Positions 21 through 41,282 are shown, counted from the stretch's first letter. The stretch: DNA of 64,000 nt from Thermoplasmatota archaeon (GCA_040751795.1 JBFMHR010000003.1:264421-328420), one strand, 5' to 3'. Notes: generated from the sequence alone by a model not told the origin. Program-made: numbers and translations.

Positions 21-2858
21 ATGGAGAGGTGGTATCCAGGCTCCGCGCCCCTGGTTGGCAAGAGGTGCTACGAGGCCTACCGCTCCCGGTCCTCCCCGTG
101 TCCAGTCTGTCCGGTGGTCAACACCTTCAAGTCCGGGAGGCCGTGCTCGCAGCGCCTCGCGAAGATGGGCCCGGACGGCGAGGACGCGGGATGGCTCGAG
201 GTCCACAGCTTCCCGGTCATCGATGGCCGGACCGGGGAGGTCGAGCAGGTCATCGAGTACCTGAGGGACGTGACCGAGCAGGAGGCCGCCAAGGACTCCT
301 CCCAGATGAGCGAGCTCAGGTACAGGGCCCTCACCGACATCGCCAGCGACGGCGTCCTGGCCGTGGACCGGGCGGGGAAGATCGTCTTCTCGAGCCCCCG
401 AGTGACGGAGATCCTCGGGTATCTGCCGGAGGAGGTCGTGGGCGCCCCCTTCCAGTCGCTGGTCGACAGGGAGTGGCTGAGCGGGCCCGGGTCCGGGGCG
501 CTCCACAAGGCGCTGGAGGGGCGCGAGCGAATCGAGATGAGGTTTGCGCGGAAGGACGGGACGCGGGCGGACGTGGTGGTGTCGTCGTCCCCGGTGTCCT
601 CGGACCGCGGCGTCTTCGACGGCGCGATCGTCGCCATCGCCGACGTCGGCGGGCTGAGGGCGGCCGCCCGCGGGATCACGTTCTCGGAGGACAGTTACAC
701 CAGGGTGTTCCAGACGTCACCGCAGATGATCATGATCGCGCGCGTCTCGGACTCGGCGATACTGGAGGCGAACGACTCCTTCGCCAAGGCCACGGGGTAC
801 GCTCACGGACAGATGGTAGGCAGGAGCTTCAAGGAGCTCGGCATCGTGTCCGAGGACCTGGCCGCGCGCATCGAGCGCGCGCTCGTCGAGACGGGGCTGA
901 TCTTCGACATGGAGGCGGTCATGCACGCCGCCTCCGGAAAGGATATCCCGGTGAGGCTGTCCGCCTACAGGCTCCGTCTCGAGGGGGAGGAGTGCAGCGT
1001 CTTCCTATCCTGCGACATCTCGCTCGTCGAGAAGGGGTCCCACGAGATGGAGCACGAGAGGGATGTGCTGAAGGCCGTCCTGGAGTCGGCCCCCGACGGC
1101 ATCCTGATAGCGTCCCTCGACGGCACGATCGTCGAGTGCAACGCCGCATTCCGCTCGCTGCTCGGGGGCATCCCAAAGGAACATCTCGTCGGCAGGAGCG
1201 CCTACGCCCTGCTGGGCGAGAGCGAGGCCGCACTCGCCAAGAGGATCGAGGAGAAGCTGGTGCACGAGGGCATGGTGAGGGGGGTCGGCTTCACGTTCAA
1301 CCGCAGCGACGGGATATCCGTGGACGCGGAGGTGTCCGCGGCGCTGGTCCGGGGCGCCAGGGGGAAGCCGTTGTACTACGTGGCCGCCGTGCGCGACATG
1401 ACCGACGAGAAGAGGTACCGTGTCTCCCTCGAGAAGGCGCTCAGCGAGCGCAGGCAGATGGAGGCCATCATCGAGAGCAGCCAGGCCGTCGCCATAAGGT
1501 GGCTCGAGGAGCCGGGGTGGCCCGTGGACTACGTCTCGGAGAACGTCAGGAAGTTCGGCTACGAGGCGGCCGAGCTCACCTCCGGCGCCGTCGAGTTCCC
1601 GTCCATAATCCACCCGGACGACAGGGACCGTGTGGTCGCCGAGGCGGGGAGGTTCCTGGAGCAAGGGTCGGATGAGTTCGAGCAGGAGTACAGGATAGTC
1701 TCCCCCGAAGGGAAGGTCGCATGGATATACGACAGGACGACCGTCCTGAGGCGACCGGACGGCAGCGTGGAGGCGTGCCAGGGCGTCCTCGTCGACGTCA
1801 CGGAGATGAGGGATGCCCTGGACAGGCTGTCGCGGACGGAGAGCCAGCTGGCCCTCTTCATGGACTATTCCCCCGTCATGAAGTTCATGAAGGACCGCTC
1901 GGGCAGGTACGTCTACGTGAACAGGAAGCTCTGCGAGGCGGTCGGCATATCCCCTGAGGAATGGCTGGGGAAGACCGACCTGGAGATATTCACCCCCGAG
2001 ACGGCGAAGGGCCTGGCAGACGGCGACAGGACGGTGTTCGAGACGCGCCAGTTCGGGCTGTTCAACGAGGTCATCCCGATGAAGGGCAGGCCGCGCGAGT
2101 TCCTCACCTACAAGTTCCTGGTCCCGAACACGGCCGGAGGGGACGACCTGCTGGCGGGTGTGTCGGTCGACCTGACCGAGGAGAGGAGCAGCGAGAGGGC
2201 CCTGAGGGCGGCGAACGACAAGCTCGAGCTCCTCGGCAGCATGACGCGCCACGACATCGCGAACCAGCTGGCCGTGCTCACCGCCAGGGTGGAGATAGCA
2301 CGCATGGGGGAGACAGACCCGGTGAGGCTCGCATCGTTCAACGAGATGCTCGCATCGTCCAACGCCATACAGGGCCTCCTCAACTTCGCATCCGAGTACC
2401 AGGAGATCGGGTCGAGGGAGCCGGCCTGGATCCCCGTGAGGCTGGCCTTCGCCGCCGGGGTGATAGGGCTCCCCATGCAGGGGGTGCGGGCGGACGTCGA
2501 CGTGGGCGGCCTCGAGGTGTTCGCCGACCCGATGTTCGAGAGGGTCTTCAGGAACCTCGTGGACAACTCCCTGAGGCACGGGGAGAAGGTCTCGAGGGTG
2601 AGGCTGAGCGCTCGCCCCGACGGGAAGGACGTGGTCCTGGTGTACGAGGACGACGGGGTGGGCCTCTCGGCCGAGGCGAAGGCGCGCGTCTTCGAGAAGG
2701 GCTTCGGGAGGCACACGGGGCTCGGCATGTTCATGGTGCGCGGGGTCCTCGCGCTCACCGGGATGGAGATACGCGAGACGGGCGAGGAGGGTTCCGGGGC
2801 GAGGTTCGAGATACGGGTCCCCGAAGGCCGCTTCAGGGACCATGCCGGGAAGGGTTAA
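21..2858 (+). CDS. Multi-PAS domain sensor histidine kinase (possibly 5'-truncated by the window edge)
   Basis: 945-aa ORF with several PAS-like repeats. A HisKA-like H-box (MTRHDIANQLAVL) is followed by a C-terminal HATPase_c signature (DDGVGL...GLGMFMVRG). Codon usage matches neighbouring genes. Confidence 0.8.
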   Translation: MERWYPGSAPLVGKRCYEAYRSRSSPCPVCPVVNTFKSGRPCSQRLAKMGPDGEDAGWLEVHSFPVIDGRTGEVEQVIEYLRDVTEQEAAKDSSQMSELRYRALTDIASDGVLAVDRAGKIVFSSPRVTEILGYLPEEVVGAPFQSLVDREWLSGPGSGALHKALEGRERIEMRFARKDGTRADVVVSSSPVSSDRGVFDGAIVAIADVGGLRAAARGITFSEDSYTRVFQTSPQMIMIARVSDSAILEANDSFAKATGYAHGQMVGRSFKELGIVSEDLAARIERALVETGLIFDMEAVMHAASGKDIPVRLSAYRLRLEGEECSVFLSCDISLVEKGSHEMEHERDVLKAVLESAPDGILIASLDGTIVECNAAFRSLLGGIPKEHLVGRSAYALLGESEAALAKRIEEKLVHEGMVRGVGFTFNRSDGISVDAEVSAALVRGARGKPLYYVAAVRDMTDEKRYRVSLEKALSERRQMEAIIESSQAVAIRWLEEPGWPVDYVSENVRKFGYEAAELTSGAVEFPSIIHPDDRDRVVAEAGRFLEQGSDEFEQEYRIVSPEGKVAWIYDRTTVLRRPDGSVEACQGVLVDVTEMRDALDRLSRTESQLALFMDYSPVMKFMKDRSGRYVYVNRKLCEAVGISPEEWLGKTDLEIFTPETAKGLADGDRTVFETRQFGLFNEVIPMKGRPREFLTYKFLVPNTAGGDDLLAGVSVDLTEERSSERALRAANDKLELLGSMTRHDIANQLAVLTARVEIARMGETDPVRLASFNEMLASSNAIQGLLNFASEYQEIGSREPAWIPVRLAFAAGVIGLPMQGVRADVDVGGLEVFADPMFERVFRNLVDNSLRHGEKVSRVRLSARPDGKDVVLVYEDDGVGLSAEAKARVFEKGFGRHTGLGMFMVRGVLALTGMEIRETGEEGSGARFEIRVPEGRFRDHAGKG

Positions 2859-34871: not shown

Positions 34872-35231
34872 TCATACCGTCGCGACCGCCATCCGCCTCG
34901 GAATGCTGCCTGGTCCGGGGAACTCTGCAGCTGGTCGGGCGAGATGTGCCTATGAATGGGGCAGAGGGATTCAAGCTCCTGCAGAGCCAATGTGTCCGGA
35001 GCCTGAGGAAATCAAGCGGGACTTCGTACGGGGACGACCCGTTTGAGTCCTCCGCTACCCCCCCTCATCGCCATCAACGAGATCGATCTGCGCCTGAAGG
35101 TTGATCGCCTCAGGCCGGCACGGCAAGCCCCCTTAGATGGACAGCCGCCCAGCAGTAGGCATGTGTCCGACAACTTTAAAGTTCACATACATAATGGGAT
35201 ATATCCGATAATTATTCATATTAGTGGCACA

Positions 35232-35861
35232 ATGAGATATATTGTGACATTCCGACTGAACGGACACGGACTCCCGCGTTACATTCGAGAGGGGGACAAG
35301 GTCGAGCGCATCTATCGGGTACTGCTGAGCAGACGCGGGGCGGGCCAGACGTGGTATCGTATCGCCAAGGCAGCTGATGTGAGCTACGGCTGGGCCCATC
35401 ACATCTTGCAGAACTTGGAGCGCGACGGCCTGATTGATGGGTCAAGGGTAATCGAGCCCCGATCACTGTTCTTGAAGTGGGCGCGGAGAAGGGATCGCAG
35501 GCTATTTCGAGAATACAACATCCAGGAGCCAGATGAACTCATCTCCGAATCGAAACTCGACCACGCATTCACTGGCTACTTCGCCGAGAACCACCTGGGT
35601 CGGTACCTGTTCCCGCGTTTGCGGGAATTCTACGTCAAGGCGGATGACAGAATGAAGTGGCATCAGCTCCTCACGAGGCATGGATATGTAGGCAGGGGGA
35701 ACACGCTGGTTCTCCTGGCCGACGACCATGTGTTCTTCGAAAGACAGAATGTCGACGGCTACCCTCTTGTGTCTACACAGCAGCTGATTGCCGACCTTTA
35801 CCGCACTGGGGCTGAGTGCGCAGAGGCAGCTGACATCTTGGTCTCGAAGGTCTACCCATGA
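35232..35861 (+). CDS. AbiEi-like antitoxin / wHTH transcriptional regulator (type IV toxin-antitoxin, inferred)
   Basis: N-terminal winged helix (ERIYRVLLSRRGAGQTWYRIAKAADVSYGWAHHILQNLERDGLI). 4-nt overlap with the downstream nucleotidyltransferase gene. Local GC is markedly lower than the surroundings. Confidence 0.5.
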   Translation: MRYIVTFRLNGHGLPRYIREGDKVERIYRVLLSRRGAGQTWYRIAKAADVSYGWAHHILQNLERDGLIDGSRVIEPRSLFLKWARRRDRRLFREYNIQEPDELISESKLDHAFTGYFAENHLGRYLFPRLREFYVKADDRMKWHQLLTRHGYVGRGNTLVLLADDHVFFERQNVDGYPLVSTQQLIADLYRTGAECAEAADILVSKVYP

Positions 35862-36658
35862 CCGTACCGCTCTATGATCCGCAGGAAACCGATGCGGCAT
35901 TGACAGCCCTTGGGGAACTCTCGAGGTCGTTGCCAGAACCATTCCTCCTCATGGGTGGATGGGCCGTCTACCTCACCGTCAATGAGTCCTTCAGCAGAGC
36001 ACACGGATCGCCGTATCTCGGTTCCCGGGACATCGACGTATGCTTTCACGTCGAACCCGATCAGACCGTGGAGGCTCTGCGTACCAGCACGTTCGCCAAG
36101 GCCTTGAGCATCGTCAGAGAGGCTGGCTATACACCCCACGGCTCCTTCCGATTCTGCAAGGTGATCCGCAGAGTCGACGGAATGGTTCTGACCGAGGAGG
36201 CAGCGAAGAGGCATCCGCTCCACGAGACCTCCTACCTTTACGTCGATATGATGGTGGACAACGTACATCCGCAACACAAGCACATCTTCAGATGCGACCC
36301 GCTCGATGAACCCCTGGCGGCTCGTGTGTTCGAAAGCGGTGAGGTTGTCCGGCGATCATTGGGGGACTTCAGAGTCCACACTCCTGCTCCGGCGTCCCTG
36401 CTCGCCACAAAACTGAGGTCTATTCCCAAGCGACAACTGGATGACAAGCTCTGGAAGGATGCATGCGATATCTACTCTCTCATATGGCATTCATCGGAGG
36501 ACTATTCGTCAATACTCGCGAAGGTGAGGAAGGAGTATCCCGATGGTTGCTCGGCGGCGCGTGGGGCGATGACGGATGAGGTCGTGGCTCGGGCCGCCCA
36601 TCATATCGGAATCGGGGACGATGAGTTCGCGAGCGTTGTCGATCTCCTGGATGGATGA
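35858..36658 (+). CDS. AbiEii/DUF1814-like nucleotidyltransferase (putative toxin)
   Basis: MGGWAVYL...GSRDIDVCFHV matches the GG-x-AL...R-x-S-x-D-x-D pattern of nucleotidyltransferase-fold toxins. Confidence 0.55.
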   Translation: MTVPLYDPQETDAALTALGELSRSLPEPFLLMGGWAVYLTVNESFSRAHGSPYLGSRDIDVCFHVEPDQTVEALRTSTFAKALSIVREAGYTPHGSFRFCKVIRRVDGMVLTEEAAKRHPLHETSYLYVDMMVDNVHPQHKHIFRCDPLDEPLAARVFESGEVVRRSLGDFRVHTPAPASLLATKLRSIPKRQLDDKLWKDACDIYSLIWHSSEDYSSILAKVRKEYPDGCSAARGAMTDEVVARAAHHIGIGDDEFASVVDLLDG

Positions 36659-36760: not shown

Positions 36761-36806
36761 CCCCTTGATTTCTCGGACCGATGACTATACTGGCTATGCC
36801 TAGGAG

Positions 36807-36981
36807 TGGGGGCAGAGGGATTTGAACCCCCATCGACGGGTTTCCTCCACGCGGAGAGCGACTCCGCGCGTTCTACGGACTATGGGTCATCGCTCCAGTT
36901 ACTCATCACTGGTCAGCAAACCCAACGGAAATCATTCCCATAACTGGAGCCCGTAAGGATACCAGGTTACCCCATACCCCC
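36807..36981 (-). tRNA. tRNA-Trp (anticodon CCA) with a 102-nt intron at the canonical 37/38 position; the intron carries box C/D-like motifs
   Basis: Exons fold by hand. Acceptor GGGGGUA/UGCCCCC with discriminator A. T-arm GGGGG-UUCAAAU-CCCUC. Anticodon stem ACGGG/CCCGU, loop CUCCAG. Intron contains GUGAUGA and CUGA, and CTGGAG complementary to the anticodon-loop CTCCAG (BHB-like). No encoded CCA. Confidence 0.75.
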
Positions 36982-37181
36982 AGAGTGGTTTGGACGCCGG
37001 GGAGCCTACTTCTTCCTCAGCTTCTGAGCTCTCTTCCGTCTCCTCATCTTCTTCTTGCGCCACTTCCATCGCTGCTTGCCGCGCTTCTTCCAGGCACGTG
37101 AGCTCCTCTTCATCGGTCAGACTCCCTCGCGTCTTTTGGGCGTACAACGCCCCCCTTTTATATGTCTTTTGGAGGCCAAGG

Positions 37182-37305
37182 CGGGCCGGTCGGGACTTTC
37201 GGGCGCTTCGGGCGCCTTTCGAACCCGAGACCACTGGCTTGCCTCACCGCCCCTTAAGGGGCGGATTAGAAGGCCAGTGCTATATCCTGACTAAGCCACC
37301 GGCCC
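37182..37305 (-). tRNA. Candidate tRNA-Arg (anticodon UCU) with two putative introns (27 nt at 37/38, about 22 nt in the T-loop)
   Basis: Perfect 7-bp acceptor GGGCCGG/CCGGCCC. D-arm GCUUAGUCAGGAUAUAGC. Anticodon stem CUGGC/GCCAG, loop CUUCUAA. T-stem UCGGG/CCCGA encloses UUCGAAA plus a GGCGCCCGAAGCGCC hairpin insert. Confidence 0.4.
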
Positions 37306-37440
37306 ACGCCTGGCCTCGGTGTAGAAGAGCCGCCGCCGTATTAAAGCTTGGTTGCAGGCCCGGCGCCCAAGGCGATAGTGCTCTAGCTCCCTGGCTCCGG
37401 GGTTACATTAAAAGCGATGCACAGCCCTCAAGGTGGTCGG

Positions 37441-38223
37441 ATGGCCGCGATAGAGATATTCGAACTCAAGAAGACCGACCTCCGCAACGCCGTGGTAATA
37501 GACGGCTTCCCGAGCGTGGGCCTGGTCAGTTCCATAGTGGCGAACTACCTGATAGCGCTCCTGAAGATGGAGTACGTCGCGGTCATGGACTCCGACCTGT
37601 TCCCGACGGTGTCCCTCATCAGGGACTCGGAACCGCTCGGGCCCGCGCGCGTATACGCACGCCCCCGCCTCAAGGACGGGGAGCAGCAGGTCGTCGTCTT
37701 CTCGACCGAGATACAGCCCTCAGCGCAGCTCCTCAGGCCCCTGGGGACGGCGATCATAGACTTCGCCATCGCCCAGCGCTGCAGGCTCGTGATATCCGCG
37801 GGCGGCCTGATCGTGGAGAGGGGAGAGGACGAGGCCGGCCAGGAGGAGGAGATCGGCGAGGTCGCCGTCTACGGCACCGGCAGCACGGACGCGGCCCAGG
37901 AGCTCCTGAAGGAGGCCGACGCGGAGCCGTTCCTCGAGGGCGTGATCTCCGGCACCGCGGGGGTGCTGCTCAACGAGGGCAAGAGGAGGCAGGTCGACGT
38001 CATCACCCTCCTCGCGGAGGCAAGGCCCGACGTCGCAGACGCCAGGGCGGCCGCGCTGATACTCGCGGCCATTGACCAGATGGTCCTCCACATGAACCTC
38101 AACGTCGAGCCGCTGTGCAAGGAGGCGGAGAGGCTAGAGGCGCAGCTGAAGGTGCTGCACAAGGACGCCGCGCGCCAGAGCAGGGGGCAGTCACCCAACA
38201 ACAAGGTCGAGGGGTACTACTAG
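37441..38223 (+). CDS. PAC2-family protein (proteasome assembly chaperone-like, PbaA/PbaB family)
   Basis: VVIDGFPSVGLVSSIVANYL motif typical of the PAC2/COG1938 family. 260 aa. Confidence 0.5.
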   Translation: MAAIEIFELKKTDLRNAVVIDGFPSVGLVSSIVANYLIALLKMEYVAVMDSDLFPTVSLIRDSEPLGPARVYARPRLKDGEQQVVVFSTEIQPSAQLLRPLGTAIIDFAIAQRCRLVISAGGLIVERGEDEAGQEEEIGEVAVYGTGSTDAAQELLKEADAEPFLEGVISGTAGVLLNEGKRRQVDVITLLAEARPDVADARAAALILAAIDQMVLHMNLNVEPLCKEAERLEAQLKVLHKDAARQSRGQSPNNKVEGYY

Positions 38224-39797: not shown

Positions 39798-41135
39798 ATG
39801 GTAGCGCAAAAAGCTTCAATCAAGACCGAGGTCCCCGGCCCCAAGTCCGTGGAGCTCGGCAAGCTGCGGGAGAAGTACCTGTCGAAGGGAGTCGGCATAG
39901 TCGCCCCGGTGTACATCGAGAAGGCCGAAGGGTCCCTCCTGTACGACGTCGACGGCAACGTCTTCATCGACATGGGGAGCGGGATAGGCGTCAACAACGT
40001 GGGCAACAGGCCCCCGGAGGTCGTGGCGGCGGTCAAGGCCCAGGCGGACAAGTTCCTCCACCTGTGCTTCCAGGTCACCCCGTACGAGAGCTACCTCCGC
40101 CTCGCCCAGAAGCTCGCGGAGTCCGCGCCAGGCAAGGGTTTGACGAAGTCGGTCCTGTACAACTCGGGCGCCGAGGCGGTGGAGAACTCCGTCAAGATCT
40201 CGAGGCACTACACGAAGAAGCCGGCGGCCTTCTCGTTCGTCCACGCGTTCCACGGCCGGACCATGATGGCCATGGCCCTGACCTCGAAGGAGATGCCCTA
40301 CAAGGCGGGGTTCGGGCCGCTGCCGGAGACCTACAAGGTCGAGTTCGCCTACTGCTACAGGTGCCCCCTGAACATGACGTACCCGTCCTGCGGCGTCGCC
40401 TGCGCGGACAAGATCGACGAGACGTGGTCGAAACCCCAGTTCCAGGGCAAGGTCGCGTGCCTAATAGGTGAGCCGATCGCGGGCGAGGGCGGTTTCATCG
40501 TCCCGCCCAAGGAGTTCTTCGCGAAGGTCACCAAGATCTGCAGGAAGCACGGTGCCGTGTACATAGACGACGAGATCCAGACCGGCGCCGGGAGGACGGG
40601 CAGGATGTGGTGCGTCGAGCACTGGCCTGGCGTCGAGCCGGACATGCTGGTCAGCGGCAAGGGCATAGGCGGAGGGTTCCCGGTGTCCGCCACCACGGGC
40701 AAGCCGGAGATCATGGACGCGCCGCAGGTCGGCGGCCTGGGCGGCACGTTCGGAGGCAACCCGGTCGCGTGCTCCGCGGCCCTGGCCCAGTGGCCGGTGA
40801 TCGAGAAGGCGTTGAAGAACGTCCCGAAGGTGAACGCCTACATGACGAGGAGGCTCTCCGAGCTGCAGAAGCGCTTCCCCATCATCGGCGACGTCAGGGG
40901 CATGGGCGCGATGATGGCCGTCGAGCTGGTCAGCGACCCGAAGGCCAAGACCCCGGCCGTCAACGAGACCAAGGCGATCAAGGCCGCGGCGCTGAAGAAG
41001 GGCCTCCTGCTCCTGACCTGCGGCACCTATGACAACGTCATAAGGATGCACCCGTCGATGGTGATGCCGCCGGAGGTCCTCGAGCAGGCGATGGACATCC
41101 TCGAGGCCAGCTTCGCCGAGGCCGTCAAGGCGTAG
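39798..41135 (+). CDS. Class-III PLP-dependent aminotransferase (4-aminobutyrate/acetylornithine aminotransferase family)
   Basis: GSGIGVNNVGN, DEIQTGAGRTG, and a PLP-lysine region SGKGIGGGFP. 445 aa. Confidence 0.85.
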   Translation: MVAQKASIKTEVPGPKSVELGKLREKYLSKGVGIVAPVYIEKAEGSLLYDVDGNVFIDMGSGIGVNNVGNRPPEVVAAVKAQADKFLHLCFQVTPYESYLRLAQKLAESAPGKGLTKSVLYNSGAEAVENSVKISRHYTKKPAAFSFVHAFHGRTMMAMALTSKEMPYKAGFGPLPETYKVEFAYCYRCPLNMTYPSCGVACADKIDETWSKPQFQGKVACLIGEPIAGEGGFIVPPKEFFAKVTKICRKHGAVYIDDEIQTGAGRTGRMWCVEHWPGVEPDMLVSGKGIGGGFPVSATTGKPEIMDAPQVGGLGGTFGGNPVACSAALAQWPVIEKALKNVPKVNAYMTRRLSELQKRFPIIGDVRGMGAMMAVELVSDPKAKTPAVNETKAIKAAALKKGLLLLTCGTYDNVIRMHPSMVMPPEVLEQAMDILEASFAEAVKA

Positions 41136-41282
41136 GCGCCCAGGCGCCCGAAACCCTTCTCAAACCCCCTCTTTGCTTCTCCAGGCGATGCCCCCTCAGG
41201 GACGGCCACCGGCCCGCCCCCTGTGCGAAACTATAAAATATACTTTCATTATTTCAAGTTGGCTTTAACGGAGGCACACGAG

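What the first reader, a model, noticed from the sequence alone, without database searches (positions are those of the whole stretch)
37182..37305. Candidate tRNA-Arg(UCU) with two introns, including a non-canonical insertion in the T-loop
A perfect 7-bp acceptor stem, D-arm and anticodon arm (UCU) are present. Completing the cloverleaf requires removing a 27-nt hairpin (CCGCCCC-TTAA-GGGGCGG) after position 37 and a 22-nt hairpin (GGCGC-CCGAA-GCGCC) from the T-loop. Multiple and non-canonical tRNA introns are known mainly from Thermoproteales and a few other archaeal lineages. Finding one here would be taxonomically notable. The same region was otherwise puzzling as a GC-rich hairpin-dense non-coding stretch.
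Basis: inference. Interest (0 to 1): 0.6.

Follow-up and report, generated by a model that had tools for sequence, protein, structure and literature searches.

The report
Two-intron arginine tRNA gene, Thermoplasmata
This is a real arginine tRNA gene from an uncultured Thermoplasmata archaeon, interrupted by two short introns, one of them in the T-loop; that layout is rare in this branch of archaea, though its kind is already known, and standard tRNA finders miss it.

Summary
On the minus strand, 37305→37182 encodes a pre-tRNA-Arg(UCU) with a 27-nt intron at the canonical site 37/38 and a 22-nt intron at 59/60 in the T-loop. Cutting at the two predicted bulge-helix-bulge (BHB) motifs gives a clean 75-nt tRNA-Arg(tct). 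ARAGORN and Rfam miss the gene as it stands. The window comes from an uncultured Thermoplasmata lineage. I parsed 39 syntenic alleles (PAC2 gene | tRNA-Arg | eL41 | tRNA-Trp). Their exons differ only at three D-loop positions, while the introns vary. The T-loop intron is present in 31 of 39 alleles and forms a strict 3-4-3 hBHBh' motif in every one. The anticodon-loop intron is present in 25. Eight alleles have no intron at all, and their sequence equals the predicted spliced product. One intron-free lineage is sister to a two-intron lineage with 99% bootstrap support, which points to precise loss of both introns. Position 59/60 is a known non-canonical site. tRNAscan-SE 2.0 already counts a few non-canonical and two-intron tRNA genes in Methanomassiliicoccales and Thermoplasmatales. 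This is therefore a new member of a known kind, rare for Euryarchaeota. Splicing itself is inferred, not shown.

The parts
37182..37305 (-). Complete pre-tRNA-Arg(UCU) gene, 124 nt: three exons and two introns
   Evidence: Sequence reading. In-silico splicing followed by ARAGORN gives tRNA-Arg(tct). MFE -64.8 kcal/mol, z = -3.7.
37267..37305 (-). Exon 1 (39 nt): acceptor 5' strand, D-arm, anticodon stem 5' strand, and loop up to A37. Anticodon UCU lies at 37270-37268.
   Evidence: Across 37 alleles it varies only at D-loop positions 16, 17 and 17a.
37240..37266 (-). Intron 1 (27 nt) at the canonical position 37/38. The central helix CUUC/GAGG is 4 bp, the 3' bulge is CA|A and the 5' bulge is UA|A. 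A U.U mismatch then precedes the 7-bp hairpin CCGCCCC-UUAA-GGGGCGG.
   Evidence: ARAGORN finds it on its own once the T-loop insert is removed. Geometry. It is absent in 14 of 39 alleles and has at least 17 distinct sequences, 20-27 nt long.
37218..37239 (-). Exon 2 (22 nt): A38, anticodon stem 3' strand, variable loop UGGUC, T-stem 5' strand UCGGG, and T-loop U54-A59.
   Evidence: Identical in all 39 reliable alleles.
37196..37217 (-). [quoted passage not shown] It forms a strict hBHBh' motif: T-stem (5 bp), bulge AA|A, central helix UUCG/CGAA, inner hairpin GGCGC-CCGAA-GCGCC, bulge AG|U.
   Evidence: Strict 3-4-3 motif in all 29 intron-bearing alleles scored by script and, by eye, in the two alleles. 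27 distinct sequences in alignment A2, 21-23 nt. 99.2% of cells are paired and two pairs show double-sided changes.
37182..37195 (-). Exon 3 (14 nt): U60, T-stem 3' strand CCCGA, acceptor 3' strand CCGGCCC, discriminator G73. CCA is not encoded.
   Evidence: Identical in all 39 reliable alleles.
37339..37351 (-). BRE/TATA-like promoter element (CCAAGC-TTTAATA), ending 33 nt upstream of the tRNA's first base.
   Evidence: Conserved as CCAAGG/CCAAGC-TTTAATA (or TTTTATA) at the same distance in 36 of 36 alleles with enough upstream sequence, intron-free alleles included.

Best explanation
This is the functional tRNA-Arg(UCU) gene of an uncultured Thermoplasmata archaeon. It is transcribed from a conserved BRE/TATA promoter as a 124-nt precursor carrying two protein-spliced archaeal introns. 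Each exon-intron junction pair folds into a bulge-helix-bulge motif: one in the anticodon arm (intron at 37/38) and one built on the T-stem (intron at 59/60). The archaeal splicing endonuclease EndA cuts after the second nucleotide of each 3-nt bulge. An RtcB-type ligase then joins the exons, giving a 75-nt tRNA with a normal UUCGAAU T-loop and CUUCUAA anticodon loop. While the T-loop intron is present, nucleotides 54-57 are held in the central helix. The D-loop/T-loop elbow and T-loop modifications therefore cannot form until that intron is removed. The T-loop motif is a strict 3-4-3 hBHBh', so it should be a substrate even for the narrow-specificity alpha'2 EndA reported for Thermoplasma and its relatives. 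What is shown here: the sequence anatomy, the motif geometry, conservation, the presence/absence polymorphism and the promoter. What is inferred: transcription, cleavage, ligation and the EndA type of this lineage.
For: (1) Removing both inserts gives a clean tRNA-Arg(tct). Removing only the T-loop insert lets ARAGORN find the 27-nt canonical intron itself. (2) The minimum-energy fold of the whole precursor contains both BHB motifs, z = -3.7. (3) Across 37 alleles from species-level MAGs and metagenome contigs, all in the order PAC2 | tRNA-Arg | eL41 | tRNA-Trp, the exons vary only at three D-loop positions. In the T-arm alignment, 14 of 23 T-intron columns vary and 0 of 36 exon columns do. 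Two further alleles fit the same pattern. (4) The T-loop intron is a strict hBHBh' motif in all 29 alleles scored by script and, by eye, in the two alleles. Changes in its helices keep pairing: U-A to U.G, G-C to G.U to A-U, and C-G to U.G to U-A. 99.2% of cells are paired, against 24-60% in shifted registers, and 0 of 500 shuffles reach the observed covariation score. (5) The variable nucleotides in the two bulges are exactly the intronic ones: the third nt of the 5' bulge (A/U) and the second nt of the 3' bulge (G/C/U). The exonic bulge nucleotides are invariant. (6) Eight natural alleles at the same locus have no introns and match the predicted spliced product base for base. (7) A conserved BRE/TATA element sits at about -33 in 36 of 36 alleles. 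(8) AGG and AGA codons are used in the window's genes. (9) Literature: 59/60 is a known archaeal intron site, and an ARMAN-2 59/60 intron was cleaved in vitro (PMC3239211; PMC4090602). Thermoplasma EndA is the alpha'2 type with narrow specificity (PMC6379350), and that type requires a strict 3-4-3 hBHBh' motif (PMC3239211).
Against: There is no RNA evidence, so splicing is inferred. I could not obtain the EndA gene of this lineage, so its subunit type and specificity are taken from the literature on relatives. Covariation in the T-loop intron is limited to two pairs with double-sided changes, because most stem positions are invariant. The shuffle control also ignores relatedness. The anticodon-intron BHB in the window copy is not perfect: a U.U mismatch opens the inner helix, which makes the 5' bulge effectively a 4x1 internal loop. 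I could not scan a whole genome of the lineage for a second tRNA-Arg(UCU) gene.
Confidence: 0.92

Rival explanations
1. The 22-nt T-loop insert is not removed. The RNA would then be a tRNA-like molecule, or a tRNA with an expanded T-arm, and only the anticodon-loop intron, if any, would be spliced.
For: There are no RNA data. Every genome-derived relative fetched keeps the insert, which could be read as selection for the insert itself.
Against: The insert is bounded by a strict EndA substrate in all 31 intron-bearing alleles. Its hairpin loop and the intronic bulge nucleotides vary freely, while the flanking T-loop residues are invariant. Intron-free alleles with the normal 7-nt T-loop sit at the same locus in close relatives, with 99% bootstrap support for the sister pair. 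An unspliced T-loop would lack the G18-U55 and G19-C56 elbow contacts. That last point rests on established tRNA structural knowledge.
Confidence: 0.04
2. This is a decaying tRNA pseudogene that has accumulated insertions, and the real tRNA-Arg(UCU) is encoded elsewhere.
For: ARAGORN and Rfam do not call it. I could not scan a whole genome for a second copy.
Against: The exons are essentially invariant across 39 alleles from lineages whose neighbouring protein has diverged to 72-95% identity, while the introns and flanks do vary. The promoter is conserved. The inserts sit exactly where BHB cleavage restores a perfect tRNA. The metagenome scan for intron-free copies returned six contigs: four keep the full gene order, one keeps the PAC2 neighbour, and one is too short to place. 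None shows a second locus.
Confidence: 0.02
3. These are chance GC-rich hairpins, or terminator or regulatory stem-loops, in the intergenic region between the PAC2 gene and the eL41 gene.
For: The region is GC-rich and dense in hairpins. A similar GGCGCC hairpin occurs by chance after another gene, at 41135-41153.
Against: Shuffled inserts form a strict BHB in 165 of 200,000 trials. The spliced sequence is a complete tRNA with all the universal residues. Conservation and the intron-free alleles argue against chance.
Confidence: 0.01

Closest known systems
[quoted passage not shown] 2011, PMC3239211), and crenarchaeal cases listed by Yoshihisa 2014 (PMC4090602)
   Same: The insertion site in the T-loop is the same, the introns are short (13-25 nt), and they are defined by a bulge-helix-bulge motif built on the T-stem. 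The ARMAN-2 tRNA-Pro T-loop introns also form a strict hBHBh' motif.
   Different: The host lineage here is Thermoplasmata, where relatives are reported to have a narrow-specificity alpha'2 EndA. ARMAN-2 has the broad-specificity epsilon2 enzyme and Crenarchaeota have the (alpha-beta)2 enzyme. The ARMAN-2 tRNA-Cys intron is a relaxed hBH motif, while this one is strict. The isoacceptor also differs: Arg-UCU here.
Multiple-intron tRNA genes of Thermoproteales (Sugahara et al. 2008 and Fujishima et al. 2010, as summarised in PMC4090602 and PMC8450103)
   Same: A single tRNA gene carries two BHB introns, one canonical and one non-canonical. Introns turn over between related species.
   Different: Thermoproteales average 0.84 introns per tRNA gene, often with relaxed motifs and with near-identical 'transposed' introns in different tRNAs. 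Here a BHB-aware scan of about 320 kb of lineage DNA found no other gene with a non-canonical intron. The two introns are also not alike in sequence.
Rare non-canonical and two-intron tRNA genes already counted in Euryarchaeota by tRNAscan-SE 2.0 (PMC8450103 Table S7): Methanomassiliicoccales have 6 non-canonical introns and 1 two-intron gene in 3 genomes, and Thermoplasmatales have 1 non-canonical intron in 5 genomes. M. kandleri and M. thermautotrophicus are listed for multiple introns in PMC4033280.
   Same: The broad taxon is the same (Thermoplasmata and relatives), and so is the phenomenon. One relative of the window's neighbouring gene is even labelled 'Methanomassiliicoccales archaeon'.
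   Different: That table gives only counts, with no isotypes or positions. I could not establish whether any of those cases is this tRNA-Arg(UCU) 59/60 intron.
Canonical euryarchaeal tRNA introns at 37/38, including the tRNA-Trp intron that carries a box C/D guide RNA
   Same: Intron 1 of this gene is of this ordinary type. The neighbouring tRNA-Trp (36806-36981, minus strand) is the classic C/D-box case.
   Different: Intron 2 lies outside the anticodon loop. Intron 1 is polymorphic in presence and sequence within the clade.

Membership tests
Archaeal EndA-dependent (BHB) tRNA intron | Two 3-nt bulges on opposite strands separated by a 4-bp helix, with splice sites after the second nucleotide of each bulge | tested here: met
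   T-loop intron: exact 3-4-3 geometry in all 29 intron-bearing alleles scored by script, and by eye in the two alleles. Anticodon intron: the 4-bp central helix and 3-nt 3' bulge are present in 22 of the 23 alleles scored by script, and L030 has one mismatch in the central helix; the two alleles also fit by eye.
Archaeal EndA-dependent (BHB) tRNA intron | Flanking helices h (outer) and h' (inner) that make a strict hBHBh' motif | tested here: met
   T-loop intron: the outer helix is the 5-bp T-stem and the inner helix is 4-6 bp, directly adjacent, in every allele. Anticodon intron: the outer helix is present in every copy. The inner helix is directly adjacent (3 bp or more) in only 9 of the 23 alleles scored by script. 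The window copy has a U.U mismatch followed by 7 bp.
Archaeal EndA-dependent (BHB) tRNA intron | Removing the intron at the predicted sites restores a canonical tRNA | tested here: met
   ARAGORN calls a 75-nt tRNA-Arg(tct) after in-silico splicing. Natural intron-free alleles have the identical sequence.
Archaeal EndA-dependent (BHB) tRNA intron | Exons are conserved while intron sequence drifts, with pairing preserved | tested here: met
   0 of 36 exon columns vary against 14 of 23 intron columns. 99.2% of cells are paired and two pairs show compensatory changes.
Archaeal EndA-dependent (BHB) tRNA intron | Actual cleavage by EndA and ligation by RtcB, with the spliced product present in cellular RNA | not testable with these tools
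   No RNA data or enzymology are available here.
Archaeal EndA-dependent (BHB) tRNA intron | The genome encodes a splicing endonuclease whose specificity fits the motif | not tested
   No EndA gene lies in the DNA I could fetch. The alpha'2, narrow-specificity type is inferred from the literature on Thermoplasma and 'Cluster II' Euryarchaeota (PMC6379350, PMC5829648).
tRNA-Arg(UCU), class I elongator tRNA | Cloverleaf with a 7-bp acceptor stem, 5-bp anticodon and T stems, a 7-nt anticodon loop with U33 and anticodon UCU, and the universal residues U8, A14, G18G19, U54U55C56, A58 | tested here: met
   ARAGORN cloverleaf of the spliced sequence and direct reading of the sequence. The D-stem has 3 Watson-Crick pairs plus U13.U22. 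A is present at position 20, an ArgRS identity element according to established knowledge.
Relaxed non-canonical introns (HBh', hBH, BHL) that need a broad-specificity EndA | One bulge is missing or altered, or a flanking helix is missing | tested here: not met
   The T-loop intron is non-canonical only in its position. Its motif is strict in every allele.
Thermoproteales-style transposed introns | Near-identical intron sequences inserted in different tRNA genes or positions | tested here: not met
   The T-intron consensus occurs only in this gene in 42 loci and the window. The one other match, at 41135-41153, is a plain hairpin with no tRNA context. The two introns of the gene are not alike. 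Only about 370 kb of lineage DNA could be searched.
Split or permuted tRNA gene | tRNA segments encoded at separate loci or in permuted order | tested here: not met
   All three exons are colinear and contiguous within 124 nt.

The most novel reading that the evidence does not exclude
The T-loop intron is not just tolerated but kept by selection in a lineage with a narrow-specificity endonuclease. It might act as an obligatory maturation checkpoint, because it blocks elbow formation and T-loop modification until it is spliced out. It might instead be the source of a stable excised RNA. Under this reading it is lost only when the whole gene is replaced by an intron-free copy. That would explain three observations. 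It is present in every genome-derived relative fetched. Its stem (GGCG/CGCC) is far more conserved than the anticodon intron. No allele lacks it while keeping the anticodon intron (0 of 39).
Probability: 0.12. Interest if true: 0.55.

Novelty: new member of a known kind. Interest (0 to 1): 0.35.

Why it matters
First, annotation. ARAGORN, even with anticodon-loop introns allowed, and Rfam at gathering threshold both miss the intron-bearing gene. It would therefore appear as a missing tRNA-Arg(UCU) in a widely sampled soil, sediment and groundwater Thermoplasmata clade unless a BHB-aware tool is used. Second, it goes against the textbook generalisation that euryarchaeal tRNA genes carry one intron at the canonical position (PMC4090602). 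It still fits the rule that narrow-specificity EndA enzymes need a strict BHB motif, because this intron is non-canonical in position but strict in motif. Third, the clade offers a clean natural series for studying tRNA-intron gain and loss. It has two-intron, T-only and intron-free alleles of one gene at one locus, including a 99%-supported sister pair that differs by both introns.

Tried and rejected
(1) ARAGORN in default mode, ARAGORN with -i, and Rfam at gathering threshold on the raw sequence all fail to call the gene. This is a tool limitation, not evidence against the gene.

(2) Attachment-site or protection hypothesis: I searched viral contigs for the intron-free and intron-bearing 3' part of the tRNA and found no hits. 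The broken synteny in intron-free contig L028 is about 1 kb holding one ORF, with no duplicated tRNA end. There is no support, so I dropped the idea as an explanation. It is not disproved.

(3) Other hidden interrupted tRNAs: my own BHB-aware scan (4,838 candidates spliced and passed to ARAGORN) over the window and 29 loci found only this gene. The tRNA-Trp calls were artefacts from helices inside its long intron.

(4) Mobile or repeated intron: the T-intron consensus occurs only in this gene. The second window match, at 41135-41153, is an ordinary hairpin after a stop codon.

(5) An outgroup to polarise gain versus loss: the PAC2 homolog search returned only relatives with at least 72% identity in its top 120. 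Polarity therefore rests on a midpoint-rooted, single-protein NJ tree with weak deep nodes.

(6) Exact look-ups of the window's aminotransferase and of the 100%-identical PAC2 hit P0001 found no contig on record. The source record could not be fetched.

(7) L040, labelled 'Methanomassiliicoccales archaeon', has an aberrant allele in the last ~100 nt of a short contig. I treated it as unreliable.

(8) The first bootstrap attempt timed out and was redone with a faster distance routine.

Full report
WHAT IS THERE

The finding's coordinates hold a tRNA gene on the minus strand, 37305→37182 (124 nt). Read 5'→3' it is: GGGCCGG UG GCUU AGUCAGGAUA UAGC A CUGGC CUUCUA | ATCCGCCCCTTAAGGGGCGGTGAGGCA | A GCCAG UGGUC UCGGG UUCGAA | AGGCGCCCGAAGCGCCCGAAAG | U CCCGA CCGGCCC G.

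- ARAGORN in default mode finds no tRNA anywhere in the 64-kb window.
- Rfam at gathering threshold finds nothing.
- A permissive Rfam scan of the region gives only a partial tRNA match: 20.8 bits against a threshold of 29, model positions 8-63, closing the T-arm on the wrong CCCGA.
- ARAGORN with anticodon-loop introns allowed also fails on the raw sequence.

TEST OF THE OBSERVATION

- Removing the 22-nt T-loop insert alone lets ARAGORN call tRNA-Arg(tct) and find the 27-nt intron at 37/38 by itself.
- Removing both inserts gives a clean 75-nt cloverleaf.
- Removing only the anticodon insert gives nothing.
- The minimum-energy fold of the intact 124-nt RNA (-64.8 kcal/mol, z = -3.7, 1 of 200 shuffles as good) contains both junction structures.

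The T-loop junction is a textbook strict hBHBh' motif:

- Outer helix UCGGG/CCCGA, which is the T-stem.
- 5' bulge AA|A.
- Central helix UUCG/CGAA.
- Inner hairpin GGCGC-CCGAA-GCGCC.
- 3' bulge AG|U.

Cutting after the second nucleotide of each bulge restores the T-loop UUCGAAU. Shuffling the insert reproduces this geometry in 165 of 200,000 trials. The anticodon-loop junction has the central helix CUUC/GAGG and a clean 3' bulge CA|A. Its inner helix, however, opens with a U.U mismatch before 7 bp.

LINEAGE AND COMPARATIVE EVIDENCE

The divergently transcribed neighbour (37441-38223, plus strand) is a PAC2-family protein. Its relatives in species-representative genomes are all uncultured Thermoplasmata or Thermoplasmatota MAGs at 72-95% identity. 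The same tRNA sits upstream of that gene in 20 of those loci, plus one that is cut by a contig end.

I obtained more alleles in three ways:

- A metagenome scan.
- An exact look-up of the adjacent eL41 mini-protein.
- Two of the most divergent PAC2 hits.

This gave 39 reliable complete alleles, which show the following:

- Exons 2 and 3 are identical in all of them.
- Exon 1 varies only at D-loop positions 16, 17 and 17a.
- The T-loop intron is present in 31 alleles, is 21-23 nt long, has 27 distinct sequences in alignment A2, and forms a strict 3-4-3 hBHBh' motif every time.
- In the T-arm alignment, 14 of 23 intron columns vary and 0 of 36 exon columns do.
- The variable bulge nucleotides are exactly the intronic ones: the third nt of the 5' bulge and the second nt of the 3' bulge. 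The exonic ones never change.
- Helix changes keep pairing: U-A to U.G in the central helix, G-C to G.U to A-U at the second inner pair, and C-G to U.G to U-A at the fifth.
- Overall, 99.2% of cells are paired, against 24-60% for shifted registers, and 0 of 500 shuffles reach the observed covariation score.

With only 21 alleles, the shuffle control reached the observed score in 49 of 500 runs. Covariation is therefore supportive rather than decisive. The main evidence is the conservation pattern.

The anticodon intron is present in 25 of 39 alleles. It is 20-27 nt long, has at least 17 distinct sequences, and these have a mean pairwise identity of 0.58. Its 3' strand always stays complementary to CUUC, as GAGG, GGGG, GGAG or GAAG, apart from one allele with GAUG.

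NATURAL SPLICED-FORM CONTROLS

Eight alleles carry no intron at all: L024 to L029, L032 and L035. Six of them keep the PAC2 neighbour, and four keep the full order tRNA-Arg → TATA box → eL41 → tRNA-Trp. Their tRNA is identical, base for base, to the product predicted by BHB cleavage. This fixes both splice junctions without any RNA data.

No allele has the anticodon intron without the T-loop intron (0 of 39).

On an NJ tree of the PAC2 protein with 300 bootstraps:

- Intron-free L026 is sister to two-intron L018, with 99% support and 92% amino-acid identity.
- Adding intron-free L024/L027 gives a clade with 72% support.
- Deeper nodes are weak, at 4-27%.

The T-introns of all lineages are homologous in position, length and stem. 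The simplest reading is therefore an ancestral T-loop intron with at least two precise losses that removed both introns together. The losses could have happened by recombination with a cDNA of the mature tRNA, or by allelic replacement from an intron-free relative. This step is inferred.

EXPRESSION SIGNALS AND NEED

- A BRE/TATA-like element (CCAAGG/CCAAGC-TTTAATA) ends about 30-34 nt upstream of the first tRNA base in 36 of 36 alleles.
- AGG is the most used arginine codon (35 of 78) in five genes of the window, and AGA is also used (8 of 78).

MECHANISM

What is shown is the anatomy described above. What follows from established knowledge of archaeal tRNA splicing is this:

- EndA recognises the BHB motif independently of the mature tRNA domain and cuts within both bulges.
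- An RtcB-type ligase joins the exons.

Thermoplasma acidophilum EndA is the alpha'2 type with narrow specificity (PMC6379350). 'Cluster II' Euryarchaeota are reported to encode only alpha'2 enzymes (PMC5829648), and these need a strict 3-4-3 hBHBh' motif (PMC3239211). The T-loop intron meets that requirement in every allele. This explains how a positionally non-canonical intron can persist in such a lineage.

While the intron is present, nucleotides 54-57 are paired in the central helix, so the D-loop/T-loop elbow cannot form. In the red alga C. merolae, a T-arm intron blocks Psi55 formation by Pus4 (PMC9602550). By analogy, T-loop modification should follow splicing here too. I could not obtain the EndA gene of this lineage, so its type is inferred.

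COMPARISON WITH WHAT IS KNOWN

- Position 59/60 is a listed non-canonical site (PMC4090602).
- It occurs in ARMAN-2 tRNA-Cys (relaxed motif, cleaved in vitro) and in ARMAN-2 tRNA-Pro (strict motif, with a second T-loop intron) (PMC3239211).
[quoted passage not shown] They list multi-intron genes in Euryarchaeota only for M. kandleri and M. thermautotrophicus (PMC4033280).
- tRNAscan-SE 2.0 Table S7 (PMC8450103) counts 25 non-canonical introns and 7 two-intron genes in 144 euryarchaeal genomes. These include 6 non-canonical introns and 1 two-intron gene in three Methanomassiliicoccales genomes, and 1 non-canonical intron in five Thermoplasmatales genomes.

The kind is therefore known and has been counted in neighbouring orders. 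I found no description of this particular tRNA-Arg(UCU) 59/60 intron or of its clade-wide conservation. It is not a relaxed-motif intron, a transposed Thermoproteales-type intron, or a split or permuted gene.

VERDICT

This is a real, conserved, two-intron tRNA-Arg(UCU) gene. It is a new member of a known kind, rare for Euryarchaeota, and interesting mainly for two reasons. It is an annotation trap: ARAGORN called tRNA-Arg(tct) only in the 8 intron-free alleles within 372 kb. It also offers a tidy natural series for studying intron loss. Splicing, the enzyme type and the direction of intron change remain inferences. Interest is 0.35.

Noticed in passing
window 36806-36981 (minus strand): tRNA-Trp(CCA) with an intron of about 102 nt, called by ARAGORN only when introns are allowed. 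The intron carries box C/D-like elements: C' GUGAUGA, D' CUGA, and a terminal stem AUGGG/CCCAU. Read by eye, its guide stretches pair with the anticodon loop (N+5 rule points to C34) and with nucleotides 38-43 (points to position 39). This is the classic euryarchaeal tRNA-Trp intron guide RNA. It is present in 34 of the fetched loci.
   Followed up: partly
window 37006-37113 (minus strand), with a TATA-like box at 37154-37164: A 35-aa mini-ORF, MKRSSRAWKKRGKQRWKWRKKKMRRRKRAQKLRKK, lies between the two tRNA genes. It matches archaeal ribosomal protein L41e/eS32 (PDB 6sw9 chain 0, E = 0.0015), although Pfam and NCBIfam give no hit. The identical protein is listed in 160 blocks of the public collection. 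The gene order tRNA-Arg, eL41, tRNA-Trp is conserved across the clade.
   Followed up: partly
window 35043-36658 (plus strand), and the equivalent region of L030-L039: The genes just downstream of tRNA-Trp differ in nearly every syntenic locus. The window has an HTH protein plus a weak AbiEii-like nucleotidyltransferase (23 bits), which may be a type IV toxin-antitoxin pair. Other loci have HEPN, GNAT, HTH_3, ferredoxin or PAS proteins. This looks like a variable hotspot beside a tRNA gene.
   Followed up: no
window about 37306-37318 (leader) and 37171-37181 (trailer), minus strand: The 5' leader (…GAGGCCA…) and 3' trailer (…UGGCCUC…) of the tRNA-Arg precursor are complementary, and they change together between loci, for example GAUGCCA/UGGCAUC in L012 and L038. 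This suggests a leader-trailer helix extending the acceptor stem. I did not quantify it.
   Followed up: no
L040 (JAJRAL010000046.1, GCA_028679935.1), minus strand 2084-2180 (reverse-complement coordinates): This allele comes from a MAG labelled 'Methanomassiliicoccales archaeon'. It has several G→T and C→A differences in exon positions that are invariant elsewhere, and it lies within the last ~100 nt of a 3.8-kb contig. It is probably an assembly-end error, but a degenerate copy cannot be ruled out.
   Followed up: no
window 41135-41153 (plus strand): The hairpin GGCGCC-CA-GGCGCC followed by CGAAA, directly after the stop codon of the class-III aminotransferase gene, matches the T-intron consensus pattern. 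It has no T-loop or T-stem context. It is probably an ordinary 3' hairpin.
   Followed up: yes
L028, L032, L035 (Ga0172363, Ga0172366, Ga0172365 contigs): In these intron-free alleles, about 1 kb holding one extra ORF is inserted between tRNA-Arg and the eL41 promoter. There is no duplicated tRNA end and no integrase within the fetched DNA.
   Followed up: partly
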